Assembly (NCBI GenBank): GCA_000165345.1
Contig: CM000434.1
Coordinates: 672,001-736,000, forward strand
Length of the DNA: 64,000 bases
Reading direction: 5' to 3'
Positions 17,607 to 22,366 of the stretch are shown one piece after another. A program made the position numbers and the translations under genes. Position 1 is the first letter of the stretch; each line of letters starts with the position of its first letter. Under the pieces are notes generated by a model. It had not been told where the DNA came from and made no database searches. It saw nothing but the letters and a program-made list of their open reading frames with translations.

Positions 17607-18389
17607 ATGAAAGATATTAAAAAAGTCGCTGAAACCATTAAATTATTGGTTGCATATAGGGAAAAAAGTGTGAGAATATTTGGGGATGGACTTGACTTAA
17701 GAGCTCCAATTCAGCCATTATTTCCAACCAAAGCTGAGAACATTTCTGGAACAGAGAATTCTATATCCAGATCAAGCTTAGAATCAAGGACCATTACAAC
17801 TGATGCTGCTGATTTGTTGAATGAGCTTGCAGCAATGCACTACGAATGGGCATTGGATAACTATGCAAAGGTAAGAACTAGAGACCATCAGGAACAGCAG
17901 AAAAAATGCTCAGCTATCCAAAAGGAGGAAATAGCAGCTCCAAGCCCATATTTGAGCTACTTATCTAGCCAATACGATGGAATTGACAGTCCAATCGTGG
18001 GTGAGATACTTGAAAATAAGCACGGATATATTGTAATGGAATGTATTCTACTACTACTTAACCAAAACAATTCTATTGAGTATGGTACAGAGCATTTTAA
18101 AAAGTATGCAAGTTTAATGCTTCTTTTAAGTGATATACTTAGATGCATGAAGAGACAAAAATCTTTGCATTGCGATACAATGGACTTCCATGTACTAGTG
18201 GATATTTTATTCAGAGAAATGGTTATCATGAGAGACTCTGGTTTTGCACTATTCGAGTACGTTTCATGCCTAAATATAGTTATCAAATGTATTGCTTCAA
18301 CAAAGGAAAAGTATAGATGGGGTGAGGCTACTTCCCTTCTTTCAGTTACAGAATCTCTGATTGAAGGGTTTGGGGTTTCATCTCAATGA
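17607..18389 (+). CDS. Hypothetical protein, 260 aa.
   Basis: ORF with ATG at 17607. TTTGGCGG and GCATGCA boxes lie about 500 bp upstream, at 17101-17130. Confidence 0.5.
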   Translation: MKDIKKVAETIKLLVAYREKSVRIFGDGLDLRAPIQPLFPTKAENISGTENSISRSSLESRTITTDAADLLNELAAMHYEWALDNYAKVRTRDHQEQQKKCSAIQKEEIAAPSPYLSYLSSQYDGIDSPIVGEILENKHGYIVMECILLLLNQNNSIEYGTEHFKKYASLMLLLSDILRCMKRQKSLHCDTMDFHVLVDILFREMVIMRDSGFALFEYVSCLNIVIKCIASTKEKYRWGEATSLLSVTESLIEGFGVSSQ

Positions 18390-18528
18390 GTAGTTTGGAA
18401 TTGTACAAGAAAATTACTGGCAAATTTTTTTTACGTCATAAAAATGCCCATAGCATTTAAACAAATTGTTTAATTACTATCACAAATGTTCCCGCCAATG
18501 CTCACAGAATATATTTAAAATTTGGTAA

Positions 18529-19465
18529 ATGGTAAATAATTTGATTTGGAGGATCAGCAGGCCAATCTCCTCGAGAGTTTTCTCTGCCATACCATATTTT
18601 AGTAAGAGAACGCTTTTTCTGTCTTTTAAACGCTTCTTTCACTCAGATCCAGAACTATGGACCAAAGATGTTCATCCGAAGATGTAAGTTAATCTATTCT
18701 AGACTTAAGAAATTATAATTAAAGTTCAACTTTTTAATTCACCATTAATTGGATCCTTAGAGAACTTTCGTTTATATTGAGAGATGGTGAGAAGAAAGTT
18801 TTTAATGTAAGTTTAGAGATCTATATCTTTTATAAATACTTTAACCATTTAACTTTGCTATAACTCAGGCTCCAAAGAATATTTCTTTACTAGAAGCTGC
18901 TCAGCATGAAGAACTAGACATAGAAGGAGCATGCGAAGCATCTTTAGCATGTAGCACATGTCATGTCATTTTGGACAAAGTAAGTTTATTGAATAGATTA
19001 ACTGGGGACGAGGAAAAAAAAAGGAAACGGAACAAACTATCGGTCTAATTTCGATGTGAAGTTCCAAATAAATAACATAAAGATCTTCCTAATATAAAGA
19101 CCCAAAAATTCACAATTCATTTGCAAAAGGGGGATAACTATAAAAGCAAACATCTATTCTTCCTCAGATGCGCACAAACTAGAACTTGTCCATGAGACTT
19201 GCATCTTAACTTTGTGCTCTCATACCCTTAAAGGCCTCGCACTTATCCTTATTTTTCACTCTTTAATCCATAGGAAATTTATGATGAACTAGAACCGCCA
19301 TCAGAGAGAGAAGAGGATATGCTGGATATGGCACCGCAAGTTTGCGAAACTTCAAGATTAGCATGTCAAATCAAAGTCGACGAAAGACTGACAAAGGGTA
19401 ACATTCATCTTCCTAACATGACACGAAATTTCTATGTCGATGGATTTAAACCATCACCACACTAA
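18529..19465 (+). CDS. Adrenodoxin-type [2Fe-2S] ferredoxin with an N-terminal presequence. Four exons: 18529-18683, 18761-18806, 18869-18979 and 19274-19465.
   Basis: Spliced by hand at GTAAGT donors (18684, 18807, 18980) and AG acceptors (18759/60, 18867/68, 19272/73). The phases close to give ...ELSFILRDGEKKVFN/APKNISLLEAAQHEELDIEGACEASLACSTCHVILDK/EIYDELEPPSEREEDMLDMAPQVCETSRLACQIKVDERL...NMT, matching the adrenodoxin ACEGTLACSTCH...DMLDLA...RLGCQI motifs. A TAA stop precedes the ATG at 18529. Confidence 0.7.
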
Positions 19466-19486
19466 GGCGGGAAGTTTTGGCGCCGA
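19465..19486. promoter_or_regulatory. Pair of E2F-like boxes (AAGGCGGGAAG and TTTTGGCGCC) abutting the ferredoxin stop codon, about 640 bp upstream of PABP.
   Basis: Read directly: actaaggcgggaagttttggcgccgag. Confidence 0.4.
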
Positions 19487-20125
19487 GCCACTTTGTATGC
19501 CGATACTTTTCCGTCTCTAATATATTTGGGAAGTTTAAGGTCGTGAAGAAAGAAAGGTTAGGAATAAAGATTATTTAATTACATAAGATCCCGCAAGGTA
19601 GACACGTATCCAAAGTAAATTTTAAGTCAGATTTGACAGGCAAGTATATTGTAAATAATGGTATTTGCGGATAACAATGACTTGTAAATCCACTAATACA
19701 GGCCCAGTTAATTTGGCGCTAAATGGTTAATTAGATTTAGTGAATTAATCAGAATGATTACGTCTAAAATAAGTGGAGCGTTATACGTAAAATGATTTAA
19801 GCACTATAAAGTAATTGAAATTAAAGTAAGAATAAGTAACGATGCACCAACGGCGACAGGAAAATATGTCCAGTAGAAATGAAGGTAATAAATGAATAGT
19901 ATTTTAATAGTATGATAATAAGGTCTAATGAGGTAATAGAGAGAAAAGGCTCCAGTCAAGAATAACATTGTAAATTTAAAGAAAAAATTCAAAAGGCTGT
20001 TTTTAGTCAAAAAAAAAAAAAAATAAAAAAAAGACCATTGGTTGCAATTATAGTGACAAAGGGTCGCCCTATAGTTCTAGCCAAACAAATACATCAGATT
20101 TTTGTGAAGAAGGCCTATTGGAAAG

Positions 20126-22366
20126 ATGACAAGTAATAATAACGTAGTACCGGTTAGTGCCTCCCTTTATGTGGGTGATTTGGATGCAGATGTGACTGAG
20201 ACAATGTTATATGAAATATTTAATAGTGTTGCAGTTGTATCATCAGTACGTATTTGTAGAGACGCTCTTACAAGAAGAAGCTTGGGTTATGCTTATGTCA
20301 ATTACAATAGTGTAGCGGATGCTGAGAGAGCTCTAGATACTCTTAATTTCACATGCATCCGTGGCCGTCCATGCAGAATTATGTGGTGCTTACGCGACCC
20401 AGCATCCAGAAGAAACAACGATGGAAATGTATTTGTAAAGAATTTGGATAAGTCGATTGATAATAAGACATTATTCGATACTTTTAGTCTATTTGGAAAT
20501 ATTATGTCATGTAAAATCGCTACCGATGTTGAGGGTAAGTCTTTGGGATATGGTTTTATCCATTTCGAACATGCAGACAGTGCTAAAGAAGCTATTTCTA
20601 GGCTAAATGGGGCTGTATTGGGAGATCGCCCAATTTATGTCGGAAAGTTCCAGAAGAAGGCTGAACGCTTTTCTGAAAAAGATAAGACATTCACTAATGT
20701 CTATGTTAAACATATCCCTAAGAGTTGGACTGAAGATCTTCTATACAAGATATTTGGAGTATATGGTAAAATTAGCTCATTGGTCCTGCAATCCGACTCT
20801 AAAGGTAGACCTTTTGGTTTTGTGAACTTTGAAAACCCCGATTCCGCTAAGGCTGCAGTTGCTGCCTTACACAATGCTTTAGTTACTCCAGTAGGGGTTG
20901 AGTTGGACTCTACAGCAGAGACTCCAGTTGATAACGAGGCTGGAGCTGATTCTGAGACATCATCCAAGCAAGAATCTGGAGAAGCTTCTAATAAAAAACA
21001 AACTGCATCTGGCGAAGCATCAAAGGATTCTTCAGGAACATCAAACGAGGAATCTGCACAGAATGAGGATGGATCAGCTGACAAGAATGTTTCAGCTGAT
21101 GTACAACCAAATAGACTATATGTTTCTAGAGCACAAAAAAAGAATGAACGTCAGGTGGTCTTGAAGTCTCAACACGAAGCTGTAAAGGAGAGCCACCAAA
21201 GATACCAAGGTGTAAATCTTTATGTAAAGAATTTGGCAGATTCAATCAATGAGGAGGACCTCCGTTCTATGTTTGAACCATTTGGAACAGTATCTTCCGT
21301 AAGCATTAAGACTGATGAATCAGGTGTCTCAAGAGGATTTGGGTTTGTTTCATTCCTCTCCCCTGATGAAGCTACAAAGGCTATTACTGAGATGCACCTT
21401 AAGCTTGTGCGCGGAAAGCCACTGTATGTAGGCCTTCACGAACGTAAAGAACAAAGAGCACTACGTCTTCAGCAGCGTATTAGAGGGGGTGCAGTCCCTC
21501 CAGTTTTAAGACCCGGAGCAATTCCCCCAGGCCCTCCAGGAGTACATGGAGCTCCCATGCAATTTGGTGTACCACCACAAATGTACTTTATTCCTGGAAA
21601 TCCAAATGTGGCAGCAACTGCTATGCCACATGGAAGAGCGATGGTTACAGGAGGTTTCCCTAATCAAAATGCAATGAATAATCCATGGAGGCCAAATCCA
21701 ACAAGAATGCCATACACTGCAGGAGGTGTGCCTCCTCAAATGACAGGCGGTCCTCAAATGACAGCCTATAATGGCAACGTTATCCAACAAAATGGAGTAT
21801 CTCCAAACGGAGCTGCTAATGCTACCGGGTCTGTCCAAAATGGAGTCACCGGTAATGCAGTTACAGGAGTTCAAGGTGCTCAAAATAACAGAACTGGAGG
21901 AAATAACCAGAGAATTCATAATAGACATGTTCAAGGTAATGGGCAAGGAGGAAGGCCGGGCTCCCATGGTCATCAAGTTCAGCAAATGCAAAAGCAAGGA
22001 TTCAAATTTCCACAAAACGTTAAGGGATCTGAAATGCAGCGCGTGGATATGATGCAAAATAGACAAATGGATTCATCAAACGGCGCACTTGTTCAGAATC
22101 CATTAATCCCTCAACCAGATGTTCCTCTAACTGCTGCTACCTTGGCAGCTGCATCCCCTAGCATGCAGAAACAATTACTTGGAGAGAGACTTTTCCCAAT
22201 TATTGCCCAATTCCAACCAGAATTGGCAGGAAAGATCACCGGGATGATGCTTGAAATGGATAACAATGAATTATTAGAACTTTTGAGTTCTGATATTGAA
22301 ATCAAAAACAAGGTAGATGAGGCCATGGTCGTACTTGAACGTGCTCAGCAACAAATTAGCACGTAA
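20126..22366 (+). CDS. PABP: Poly(A)-binding protein with four RRMs, a Gly/Pro/Gln-rich linker and a C-terminal PABC/MLLE domain.
   Basis: RNP motifs are present: KSLGYGFIHF, KGRPFGFVNF, SRGFGFVSF and LYVGDL. The C-terminal part reads MQKQLLGERLFPIIAQFQPELAGKITGMMLEMDNNELLELL, as in the PABC domain. Confidence 0.92.
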   Translation: MTSNNNVVPVSASLYVGDLDADVTETMLYEIFNSVAVVSSVRICRDALTRRSLGYAYVNYNSVADAERALDTLNFTCIRGRPCRIMWCLRDPASRRNNDGNVFVKNLDKSIDNKTLFDTFSLFGNIMSCKIATDVEGKSLGYGFIHFEHADSAKEAISRLNGAVLGDRPIYVGKFQKKAERFSEKDKTFTNVYVKHIPKSWTEDLLYKIFGVYGKISSLVLQSDSKGRPFGFVNFENPDSAKAAVAALHNALVTPVGVELDSTAETPVDNEAGADSETSSKQESGEASNKKQTASGEASKDSSGTSNEESAQNEDGSADKNVSADVQPNRLYVSRAQKKNERQVVLKSQHEAVKESHQRYQGVNLYVKNLADSINEEDLRSMFEPFGTVSSVSIKTDESGVSRGFGFVSFLSPDEATKAITEMHLKLVRGKPLYVGLHERKEQRALRLQQRIRGGAVPPVLRPGAIPPGPPGVHGAPMQFGVPPQMYFIPGNPNVAATAMPHGRAMVTGGFPNQNAMNNPWRPNPTRMPYTAGGVPPQMTGGPQMTAYNGNVIQQNGVSPNGAANATGSVQNGVTGNAVTGVQGAQNNRTGGNNQRIHNRHVQGNGQGGRPGSHGHQVQQMQKQGFKFPQNVKGSEMQRVDMMQNRQMDSSNGALVQNPLIPQPDVPLTAATLAAASPSMQKQLLGERLFPIIAQFQPELAGKITGMMLEMDNNELLELLSSDIEIKNKVDEAMVVLERAQQQIST

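What the first reader, a model, noticed from the sequence alone, without database searches (positions are those of the whole stretch)
18529..19465. Intron-containing adrenodoxin-type ferredoxin missed by the ORF track, with an unusually long third intron
No ORF of 60 aa or more is reported here. Three GTAAGT...AG introns of 77, 62 and 294 nt join four exons into a 167-aa [2Fe-2S] ferredoxin with a basic presequence, the expected electron donor for Fe-S cluster assembly in the mitosome. The 294-nt third intron is several times longer than the others in this intron-poor, compact genome. That raises the possibility of an intron-hosted snoRNA or regulatory element. The gene begins only 139 bp after the stop of the upstream gene.
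Basis: partly seen in the sequence, partly recalled or inferred. Interest (0 to 1): 0.5.

Follow-up and report, generated by a model that had tools for sequence, protein, structure and literature searches.

The report
Known Cryptosporidium ferredoxin gene; long neutral intron
This is the already annotated four-exon gene for the mitochondrial-type [2Fe-2S] ferredoxin (Fd1) of Cryptosporidium parvum, and its unusually long third intron evolves like junk sequence, with no sign of a hidden snoRNA, so the finding is correct but ordinary.

Summary
Exons 18529-18683, 18761-18806, 18869-18979 and 19274-19465 (+) are joined by three GTAAGT...AG introns of 77, 62 and 294 nt. They encode a 167-aa adrenodoxin/FDX2/Yah1-type [2Fe-2S] ferredoxin with a basic, acid-free N-terminal extension.

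The gene is not new. The identical 167-aa protein is already deposited as C. parvum "ferredoxin-like protein Fd1" (EAZ51527.1, QOY41184.1/CPATCC_002841; AAM50091.1 differs only in its last residue). It escaped an ORF list only because no exon gives an ORF of 60 aa or more.

Intron 3 really is long: 294 nt against a published C. parvum median of 61 and mean of 82. That length is shared by intestinal Cryptosporidium species (224-329 nt), while C. muris has 57 nt. Its sequence, however, diverges at the same rate as four-fold degenerate codon sites. It has no C/D boxes, no conserved ACA box, no Rfam match above chance, no unusual folding energy and no covariation.

The strongly conserved non-coding DNA at this locus lies elsewhere: about 550 bp upstream of the neighbouring poly(A)-binding protein gene.

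The parts
18489..18496 (-). E2F-like motif GGCGGGAA, 33-40 bp upstream of the ATG, inside the only conserved block (18470-18508) of the 139-bp intergenic spacer. Probable core promoter element (inferred).
   Evidence: 8 copies in the window against 0.26 expected.: three-species identity 0.72 at 18470-18508 against 0.3-0.4 further upstream.
18529..18683 (+). Exon 1 (155 nt; residues 1-51 plus 2 nt of codon 52). Encodes the N-terminal presequence-like extension.
   Evidence: residues 1-39 hold 7 K/R, 0 D/E and 7 Ser.: the motif RF(F/H)HSDPxLW is conserved in the intestinal Cryptosporidium species.
18684..18760 (+). Intron 1, 77 nt, GTAAGT...AG, phase 2, 23% GC.
   Evidence: Same position and 77-78 nt in five relatives.
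18761..18806 (+). Exon 2 (46 nt; residues 52-67). First beta hairpin of the ferredoxin fold.
18807..18868 (+). Intron 2, 62 nt, GTAAGT...AG, phase 0, 24% GC.
   Evidence: It is 61-65 nt in relatives.
18869..18979 (+). Exon 3 (111 nt; residues 68-104). Holds cluster ligands C89, C95 and C98 in GACEASLACSTCH.
   Evidence: These residues are invariant in the 30-sequence alignment A3.
18980..19273 (+). Intron 3, 294 nt, GTAAGT...AG, phase 0, 35% GC. Long, neutrally evolving, with no detectable embedded RNA gene. A branch-point-like TCAC lies at 19256-19259, 15 nt from the 3' AG (weak inference).
19274..19465 (+). Exon 4 (192 nt; residues 105-167 plus TAA). Holds the fourth ligand C135 and the FDX2/Yah1-type C-terminal motif TRNFYVDGFKPSPH.

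Best explanation
The window is Cryptosporidium parvum chromosome 6. The feature is its single-copy gene for the mitochondrial-type (adrenodoxin / FDX2 / Yah1-like) [2Fe-2S] ferredoxin Fd1.

The pre-mRNA is probably transcribed from a short promoter in the 139-bp spacer that carries an E2F-like GGCGGGAA motif. It loses three canonical GTAAGT...AG introns.

The 167-aa product has a positively charged, acid-free extension of about 40-50 residues that most likely directs it into the relict mitochondrion (mitosome). The acidic ferredoxin domain (residues ~52-167) would bind one [2Fe-2S] cluster through C89, C95, C98 and C135. It would pass electrons from a ferredoxin reductase to the NFS1-ISCU core complex for Fe-S cluster synthesis, as human FDX2 and yeast Yah1 do.

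Intron 3 is an old, large, functionally empty intron. It was already about 300 nt long in the common ancestor of the intestinal Cryptosporidium species and is 57 nt in C. muris. Since then it has drifted in sequence and base composition like synonymous sites, and only its splice signals are conserved.

Shown here: gene structure, identity to deposited proteins, family membership by sequence and predicted fold, and the neutral evolution of intron 3. Inferred: organelle targeting, cluster binding, the electron-donor role and promoter use.
For: Gene model and identity:
- Splice model.
- Exact identity to EAZ51527.1 / QOY41184.1; AAM50091.1 'ferredoxin-like protein Fd1' differs only at residue 167.
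- Conserved synteny (folate-receptor-like, SPIN90-like, Fdx, PABP) in nine other Cryptosporidium genomes.

Family:
- Pfam PF00111 scores 43.5 bits against a cut-off of 21.
- Gapless alignment to human FDX2 (8rmc_I, E=1.9e-31) and to Yah1 (2mjd, 2e-28).
- AlphaFold2 core pLDDT is above 90. The top Foldseek hits are 8rmc_I, 2y5c, 2mjd and 2wlb, with target-normalised TM 0.73-0.90.
- The four Cys are invariant in 30 homologues.
- Presequence: residues 1-39 net +7, mature part net -11.

Intron 3 is neutral:
- Identity of parvum to tyzzeri / meleagridis / chipmunk / ubiquitum is 0.953 / 0.827 / 0.623 / 0.549 for intron 3. Four-fold degenerate sites give 0.966 / 0.839 / 0.596 / 0.560.
- It is the least conserved stretch of the locus.
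- Its GC content follows each species' local composition, from 0.33 to 0.58.
- The longest five-species identical run is 7 nt, and that run is the 5' splice site.
- No C/D candidates in parvum or five relatives.
- No ACA conserved in all five species on either strand.
- MFE z-scores are -0.57 and +0.37.
- The RNAalifold consensus is only -5.1 kcal/mol.
- Rfam gives only chance-level hits (snoR4 16.9 bits against gathering 60, E=7.8).
- No copy of the intron elsewhere in the window.

Length context: Irimia & Roy 2008 (PMC2483917, Table 2) give 213 C. parvum introns with median 61, mean 82.08, SD 72.97, 78% AT; the text says 84% start GTAAGT.
Against: - No RNA-seq or cDNA evidence could be inspected, so the junctions rest on homology, on conservation in ten genomes and on agreement with public annotation.
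- Li et al. 2022 (PMC9465071) report 23 intronic ncRNAs in C. parvum, some without conserved structure. Their locus tables were not available, so an unconserved small RNA from intron 3 cannot be formally excluded.
- Intron 3 length is similar (290-299 nt) in parvum, meleagridis, tyzzeri, chipmunk genotype I and ubiquitum despite near-saturated substitution. I judge this compatible with rare, short indels, but I did not test it statistically.
- Targeting and redox function were not tested.
Confidence: 0.88

Rival explanations
1. Intron 3 hosts a box C/D or H/ACA snoRNA that is released on splicing and guides rRNA modification. That would explain why the intron is retained and long.
For: - The intron is 4.8 times the species median length and less AT-rich (65% AT) than typical C. 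parvum introns (78% AT).
- C. parvum does have intron-hosted snoRNAs: 4 of its 10 snoRNAs are intronic (PMC9465071).
- A snoR4-like Rfam alignment exists at 19123-19199, but at 16.9 bits with E=7.8.
Against: - No RUGAUGA...CUGA pair with a terminal stem on either strand in parvum, chipmunk, canis, ubiquitum, ryanae or felis.
- There is no CTGA at all on the + strand of the parvum intron, and no ACA is conserved across five species.
- Divergence equals that of four-fold degenerate sites.
- No thermodynamic or covariation signal.
- The snoR4-like stretch lies in the least conserved part of the intron.
Confidence: 0.03
2. Intron 3 has a sequence-independent or lineage-restricted role. Examples: regulated intron retention that tunes ferredoxin output, a non-structured intronic or antisense transcript, or a spacing function. 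Under this reading length is kept but sequence is not.
For: - A length of 224-329 nt is kept in all nine intestinal-clade genomes examined, against 57 nt in C. muris.
- Li et al. note highly expressed intronic ncRNAs without conserved structure, cgd2_1365 and cgd5_2965.
- RNAalifold proposes weak pairing between the 5' end of the intron and a segment near its 3' end.
Against: - Nothing positive in the sequence.
- The proposed pairing contributes to a total of only -5.1 kcal/mol and is absent from the single-sequence MFE.
- No lncRNA is listed under CPATCC_0028400, CPATCC_0028410 or CPATCC_0028420 in the supplements of Li et al. 2021.
- The spread in length (224-329 nt) is what drift by short indels would give.
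Confidence: 0.07
3. The gene model is wrong in part (other acceptor sites, exon skipping or a different start), as several public models of the orthologues would imply.
For: - Public orthologue models disagree: C. ubiquitum 139 aa, C. canis 186 aa, C. ryanae 161 aa, C. felis 158 aa, C. hominis 109 aa and a 413-aa fusion.
- Alternative in-frame AG acceptors exist.
Against: - Only the 167-aa model keeps the first beta strand and all four Cys ligands and aligns without gaps to FDX2.
- Applying it to C. ubiquitum and C. canis DNA restores intact 167/168-aa ferredoxins.
- Four independent C. parvum-group annotations give the same 167 aa.
- The variant models lose conserved structure. The C. ubiquitum model lacks the CX5CX2C motif.
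Confidence: 0.02

Closest known systems
Cryptosporidium parvum ferredoxin-like protein Fd1 (GenBank AAM50091.1 / UniProt Q86DP9; EAZ51527.1 in Iowa II; CPATCC_002841 in IOWA-ATCC)
   Same: It is this gene. The spliced product is 167/167 identical to EAZ51527.1 and QOY41184.1, and 166/167 identical to AAM50091.1.
   Different: Nothing of substance. AAM50091.1 ends in Q instead of H.
Human FDX2 and yeast Yah1 (mitochondrial ferredoxins of the ISC Fe-S assembly pathway; PDB 8rmc, 2y5c, 2mjd)
   Same: - 45-48% identity over the whole mature domain without gaps.
- Same CX5CX2CX36C ligand spacing.
- Same C-terminal TRNFYVDGxxPxPH tail.
- Same predicted fold.
   Different: - The presequence is unrelated in sequence.
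- Residue 162 is F instead of the commoner H. F occurs in 8 of 30 homologues, so it is not special.
- The organelle is a genome-less mitosome.
- Function has not been shown in this organism with these tools.
Vertebrate adrenodoxin (FDX1), the steroidogenic P450 electron donor
   Same: Same superfamily and fold (E~5e-19, 36-39% identity).
   Different: The protein is clearly closer to FDX2/Yah1 than to FDX1. FDX1 alignments need gaps and lack the conserved C-terminal tail. Calling it 'adrenodoxin-type' is right at the superfamily level only.
Intron-hosted snoRNAs of C. parvum (Li et al. 2022, PMC9465071)
   Same: The host is a spliced protein-coding gene in an intron-poor genome, and the intron is longer than usual.
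   Different: Those snoRNAs have recognisable boxes and are conserved in at least seven Cryptosporidium species. Intron 3 has neither boxes nor conservation.

Membership tests
Mitochondrial adrenodoxin-type [2Fe-2S] ferredoxin, FDX2/Yah1 subgroup | 2Fe-2S ferredoxin domain (Pfam PF00111) above the curated threshold | tested here: met
   43.5 bits against a cut-off of 21, E=3e-11, residues 60-139.
Mitochondrial adrenodoxin-type [2Fe-2S] ferredoxin, FDX2/Yah1 subgroup | Four cysteine ligands with spacing C-X5-C-X2-C-X36-C | tested here: met
   C89, C95, C98 and C135. All are invariant in 30 homologues.
Mitochondrial adrenodoxin-type [2Fe-2S] ferredoxin, FDX2/Yah1 subgroup | Closer to FDX2/Yah1 than to FDX1, including the conserved C-terminal tail TRNFYVDGxxPxPH | tested here: met
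   FDX2 E=1.9e-31 with a gapless alignment to the last residue. FDX1/adrenodoxin reaches only about 5e-19. Tail residues 154-167 are conserved.
Mitochondrial adrenodoxin-type [2Fe-2S] ferredoxin, FDX2/Yah1 subgroup | Beta-grasp ferredoxin fold superposable on solved FDX2/Yah1 | tested here: met
   AF2 mean pLDDT is 79.8, with the core above 90. Foldseek gives 8rmc_I at E=2e-13 with target-normalised TM 0.85, and 2y5c_A with TM 0.89.
Mitochondrial adrenodoxin-type [2Fe-2S] ferredoxin, FDX2/Yah1 subgroup | N-terminal organelle-targeting presequence | tested here: inconclusive
   The composition fits: residues 1-39 have 7 K/R, 0 D/E and 7 Ser, with an amphipathic start (hydrophobic moment 0.72-0.78) and low pLDDT. 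No targeting predictor or localisation data were available.
Mitochondrial adrenodoxin-type [2Fe-2S] ferredoxin, FDX2/Yah1 subgroup | Binds a [2Fe-2S] cluster and donates electrons to the NFS1-ISCU complex | not testable with these tools
   Inferred from homology only.
Intron-hosted box C/D snoRNA | C box (RUGAUGA) and D box (CUGA) 45-160 nt apart, closed by a terminal stem | tested here: not met
   Zero candidates on either strand in parvum and five relatives, allowing one mismatch in the C box. Shuffles give 0.15 per intron. There is no CTGA on the + strand.
Intron-hosted H/ACA snoRNA | Hairpin-H box-hairpin-ACA architecture with a conserved ACA | tested here: not met
   No ACA on either strand is conserved in all five aligned species. 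MFE z-scores are -0.57 and +0.37. The consensus fold is -5.1 kcal/mol.
Any conserved intronic ncRNA or cis-element | Sequence conservation above the neutral (synonymous-site) level | tested here: not met
   Intron 3 identity is 0.953/0.827/0.623/0.549 against 0.966/0.839/0.596/0.560 for four-fold sites. It cannot be aligned with C. xiaoi, C. ryanae or C. felis.
Any described RNA family (Rfam 15) | Covariance-model match at or near the gathering score | tested here: not met
   Nothing at gathering score in the whole window. The best match in the intron is snoR4 at 16.9 bits against 60, E=7.8.

The most novel reading that the evidence does not exclude
Intron 3, although unconserved in sequence, is kept long in the intestinal Cryptosporidium lineage because it does something that does not depend on sequence. 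It might yield a lineage-specific unstructured intronic small RNA of the kind Li et al. 2022 saw at cgd2_1365 and cgd5_2965. Alternatively, it might slow or gate splicing so that ferredoxin supply to the mitosome is regulated by intron retention.
Probability: 0.06. Interest if true: 0.3.

Novelty: already known. Interest (0 to 1): 0.08.

Why it matters
It matters little beyond bookkeeping. The gene and its product are already in public C. parvum annotations.

Two practical points follow. First, several orthologue models in public databases are defective: C. ubiquitum 139 aa without the cluster ligands, C. canis 186 aa reading into intron 3, C. hominis 109 aa and a 413-aa fusion, and C. ryanae and C. 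felis lacking the first strand. All can be repaired with the four-exon model confirmed here. Second, intron 3 can serve as a local neutral-rate yardstick. Measured against it, the region upstream of the neighbouring PABP gene stands out as strongly constrained.

If the intron had carried a snoRNA, that would have supported the idea that ncRNAs keep introns alive in intron-poor genomes. It does not.

Tried and rejected
- snoRNA in intron 3. Rfam was searched at gathering score on the whole window and at E<=10 on 1.9 kb and on the intron alone. Only chance hits came back.
- Custom C/D scan in seven species, both strands: nothing in parvum or its close relatives. The two hits were on the minus strand of C. 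xiaoi only.
- ACA and CTGA conservation scan: none conserved.
- Structured RNA in intron 3. Single-sequence folding of both strands and RNAalifold on four species gave no signal.
- Repeat or mobile origin of intron 3. blastn against the 64-kb window found only chance matches of 26 nt or less.
- Hidden exon or ORF in intron 3. ORFs there are 38 aa or shorter. Alignments carry many indels. The FDX2 alignment is gapless across the junction.
- Published locus tables of C. parvum ncRNAs. No supplementary text is held for PMC9465071. Gene ids and 'ferredoxin' are absent from the supplements of PMC7840661.
- F162 in the C-terminal tail as a Cryptosporidium peculiarity. Rejected, because F occurs in 8 of 30 homologues from other lineages.
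- Globally structured ncRNA in the conserved PABP upstream region. Fold z-scores are -0.50 and -0.90, and the covariation term is +2.48. This is not supported as a stable global structure.

Full report
**What is in the sequence**

Region 18529-19465 on the + strand has GTAAGT at 18684, 18807 and 18980. I removed 18684-18760 (77 nt), 18807-18868 (62 nt) and 18980-19273 (294 nt), each ending in AG. This joins four exons of 155, 46, 111 and 192 nt into a 504-nt reading frame of 167 codons plus TAA. Intron 1 is phase 2; introns 2 and 3 are phase 0.

No ORF of 60 aa or more overlaps the region on either strand. The longest are 52 aa on + and 46 aa on -. The upstream ORF (17607-18389, 260 aa) ends 139 bp before the ATG. 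Every number in the finding is therefore correct.

**Is the splice model real?**

Three lines of evidence support it.

- The product matches Pfam Fer2 (PF00111, 43.5 bits against a cut-off of 21). It aligns without a single gap to human FDX2 over residues 52-167 (8rmc_I, E=1.9e-31) and to yeast Yah1 (2mjd, 2e-28). That alignment runs straight across junctions 2 and 3.
- The locus is syntenic in nine other Cryptosporidium genomes, in the order folate-receptor-like, SPIN90-like 260-aa protein, ferredoxin, poly(A)-binding protein. The same donor sites and intron positions give intact 167/168-aa ferredoxins in chipmunk genotype I, C. ubiquitum, C. canis, C. meleagridis and C. tyzzeri.
- An exact-sequence look-up finds the 167-aa product already deposited. 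It appears as C. parvum Iowa II 'ferredoxin-like protein Fd1' (EAZ51527.1) and as IOWA-ATCC CPATCC_002841 (QOY41184.1). The older entry AAM50091.1/Q86DP9 differs only in the last residue. The flanking 260-aa and 746-aa proteins are likewise exact C. parvum proteins.

The window is C. parvum chromosome 6 and the gene is known. I could not inspect transcript data directly.

**What the protein is**

The ligand cysteines are C89, C95, C98 and C135 (spacing X5, X2, X36). They are invariant in an alignment of 30 homologues, as is most of the C-terminal tail TRNFYVDGxxPxPH.

An AlphaFold2 model built on that alignment has pLDDT above 90 over most of residues 50-150 and low confidence over residues 1-40. 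Its best structural matches are human FDX2 bound to the core ISC complex (8rmc_I), free FDX2 (2y5c), Yah1 (2mjd) and S. pombe Etp1fd (2wlb). FDX1/adrenodoxin and putidaredoxin rank below these.

Residues 1-39 contain 7 Lys/Arg, no Asp/Glu and 7 Ser, with an amphipathic first turn. The mature part has net charge -11. This composition is what established knowledge of matrix presequences predicts.

The role as electron donor to Fe-S cluster assembly in the relict mitochondrion is an inference from homology to FDX2/Yah1. It also rests on the known presence of ISC components in that organelle (LaGier et al. 2003, cited in PMC3617024; Miller et al. 2018, PMC6282951, listed). It was not tested here.

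**Is intron 3 unusual?**

It is unusual in length. Irimia & Roy 2008 (PMC2483917, Table 2) give 213 C. parvum introns with median 61 nt, mean 82.08, SD 72.97 and 78% AT; the text says 84% start GTAAGT. Li et al. 2022 list 1370 introns covering 1.29% of the genome sequence.

Introns 1 and 2 (77 and 62 nt, 76-77% AT) are typical. Intron 3 is 4.8 times the median, about 2.9 SD above the mean, and only 65% AT.

The long state is shared across the intestinal species:

| Species | Intron 3 length (nt) |
|---|---|
| C. parvum (window) | 294 |
| C. meleagridis | 294 |
| C. tyzzeri | 292 |
| chipmunk genotype I | 290 |
| C. ubiquitum | 299 |
| C. canis | 321 |
| C. xiaoi | 329 |
| C. ryanae | 320 |
| C. 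felis | 224 |
| C. muris (gastric) | 57 |

All ten introns sit at the same position.

**Does intron 3 carry anything?**

All tests were negative.

- Conservation. In a locus-wide alignment, intron 3 is the least conserved segment. Three-species identity is 0.2-0.6, against 0.7-0.9 in exons.
- Rate. The table below compares intron 3 with four-fold degenerate codon sites of the same gene. Intron 3 evolves at the neutral rate.

| Comparison with C. parvum | Intron 3 identity | Four-fold site identity |
|---|---|---|
| C. tyzzeri | 0.953 | 0.966 |
| C. meleagridis | 0.827 | 0.839 |
| chipmunk genotype I | 0.623 | 0.596 |
| C. ubiquitum | 0.549 | 0.560 |

- Alignability. Intron 3 cannot be aligned with C. 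xiaoi, C. ryanae or C. felis.
- Composition. Its GC content drifts with each genome, from 0.33 in C. xiaoi to 0.58 in C. felis, as unconstrained sequence should.
- Identical runs. The longest stretch identical in five species is 7 nt, and it is the 5' splice site.
- snoRNA boxes. No C box/D box pair with a terminal stem exists on either strand in C. parvum or five relatives. There is no CTGA at all on the sense strand, and no ACA triplet on either strand is conserved in all five aligned species.
- Structure. Minimum free energies are ordinary (z = -0.57 sense, +0.37 antisense). The four-species consensus fold is only -5.1 kcal/mol.
- Rfam. Nothing reaches gathering score in the whole window. 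The only intron matches are chance-level: snoR4 at 16.9 bits against 60 (E=7.8), and an lncRNA fragment at E=0.86.
- Repeats. The intron has no second copy in the window.

That is what is found.

One caveat remains. Li et al. 2022 describe 23 intronic ncRNAs in C. parvum, some without conserved structure, and their locus tables were not available to me. The lncRNA supplement of Li et al. 2021 has no entry under the three neighbouring gene ids.

**Most likely account of intron 3**

It is an old, large, functionally empty spliceosomal intron. Only the GTAAGT donor, the AG acceptor and perhaps a branch-point-like TCAC 15 nt upstream of the acceptor (19256-19259) matter. TCAC is invariant in four species, but the result depends on the alignment. 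Published work also finds no clear branch consensus in this species.

The near-constant length among the closest species is, by my estimate, compatible with rare short indels. I did not test this formally.

**Comparison with known things, and novelty**

The gene is C. parvum Fd1, a member of the FDX2/Yah1 subgroup of adrenodoxin-type ferredoxins. All sequence and fold criteria I could test are met. The presequence criterion is met in composition only, and the biochemical criteria cannot be tested here. The intron fails every criterion for an intron-hosted snoRNA. Nothing here is new, so the novelty class is 'already known' and the interest is low.

**Other things seen**

- The truly constrained non-coding DNA at this locus is 19575-20125, the 551 bp upstream of the PABP start codon at 20126.
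  - Its identity to tyzzeri/meleagridis/chipmunk/ubiquitum is 0.978/0.944/0.858/0.799, equal to or above the ferredoxin exons. Long blocks are still invariant in C. canis and C. felis.
  - Small indels between close species rule out coding.
  - It contains an A14-T-A8 tract (20009-20032) followed by a conserved inverted repeat (about 20040-20081).
  - Global folding is unremarkable and covariation is absent.
  - A long conserved PABP 5' leader or promoter with an oligo(A) autoregulatory site, as known for PABP mRNAs in other eukaryotes (my own knowledge), is the obvious hypothesis. I did not test it.
- The E2F-like octamer GGCGGGAA occurs 8 times in the window against 0.26 expected. One copy lies 33 bp upstream of the ferredoxin ATG and one starts on the first base after its stop codon. 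TTGGCGCC occurs 6 times against 0.23 expected.
- Several public orthologue models are defective.

Noticed in passing
window 19575-20125 (+), upstream of the PABP ATG at 20126: A 551-bp non-coding stretch is as conserved as, or more conserved than, the ferredoxin exons. Identity to C. tyzzeri/meleagridis/chipmunk/ubiquitum is 0.978/0.944/0.858/0.799, against 0.953/0.827/0.623/0.549 for intron 3, and invariant blocks persist in C. canis and C. felis. Frame-breaking indels show it is not coding. Fold z-scores are -0.5 and -0.9, and there is no covariation or Rfam match. It is probably a long PABP 5' leader or promoter, or an undescribed ncRNA.
   Followed up: partly
window 20009-20081: An A14-T-A8 tract (20009-20032) lies about 95-115 nt upstream of the PABP start. 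It is followed by a sequence-conserved inverted repeat, GGTTGCAATTATAG...CTATAGTTCTAGCC. The A-rich tract is present in all ten Cryptosporidium species compared; in C. muris it abuts the ATG. It resembles the oligo(A) autoregulatory element of PABP mRNAs in other eukaryotes (my own knowledge, untested).
   Followed up: partly
window 18489-18496 (-), 19466-19473 (+), 19477-19484 (+), and six further sites: E2F-like motifs are strongly over-represented in the window. GGCGGGAA occurs 8 times against 0.26 expected, and TTGGCGCC 6 times against 0.23. One GGCGGGAA sits 33 bp upstream of the ferredoxin ATG in the only conserved block of the 139-bp spacer. A GGCGGGAAGTTTTGGCGCC pair starts on the first base after the ferredoxin stop codon.
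   Followed up: partly
L003:3001-3946 (C. ubiquitum), L002:3001-3970 (C. canis), L005, L006; proteins P0006, P0002, P0004, P0005, P0129, P0127: Public gene models of the orthologues are inconsistent. C. ubiquitum is 139 aa and lacks the CX5CX2C ligands. C. canis is 186 aa and reads 18 codons into intron 3. C. ryanae and C. felis lack the first beta strand. C. hominis has a 109-aa truncation and a 413-aa fusion with the upstream gene. Applying the four-exon model restores intact 167/168-aa ferredoxins in C. ubiquitum and C. canis.
   Followed up: yes
window 19649-19701 (+): A weak SNORD42-like Rfam alignment (19 bits against gathering 39, E=9.4) lies inside the conserved PABP upstream region. 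It lacks canonical C and D boxes, so it is probably chance.
   Followed up: partly
L007:3326-3382 (C. muris): The gastric species C. muris has the same three intron positions, but its intron 3 is only 57 nt. The roughly 300-nt state is therefore specific to the intestinal clade. The direction of change (expansion or shrinkage) was not resolved.
   Followed up: partly
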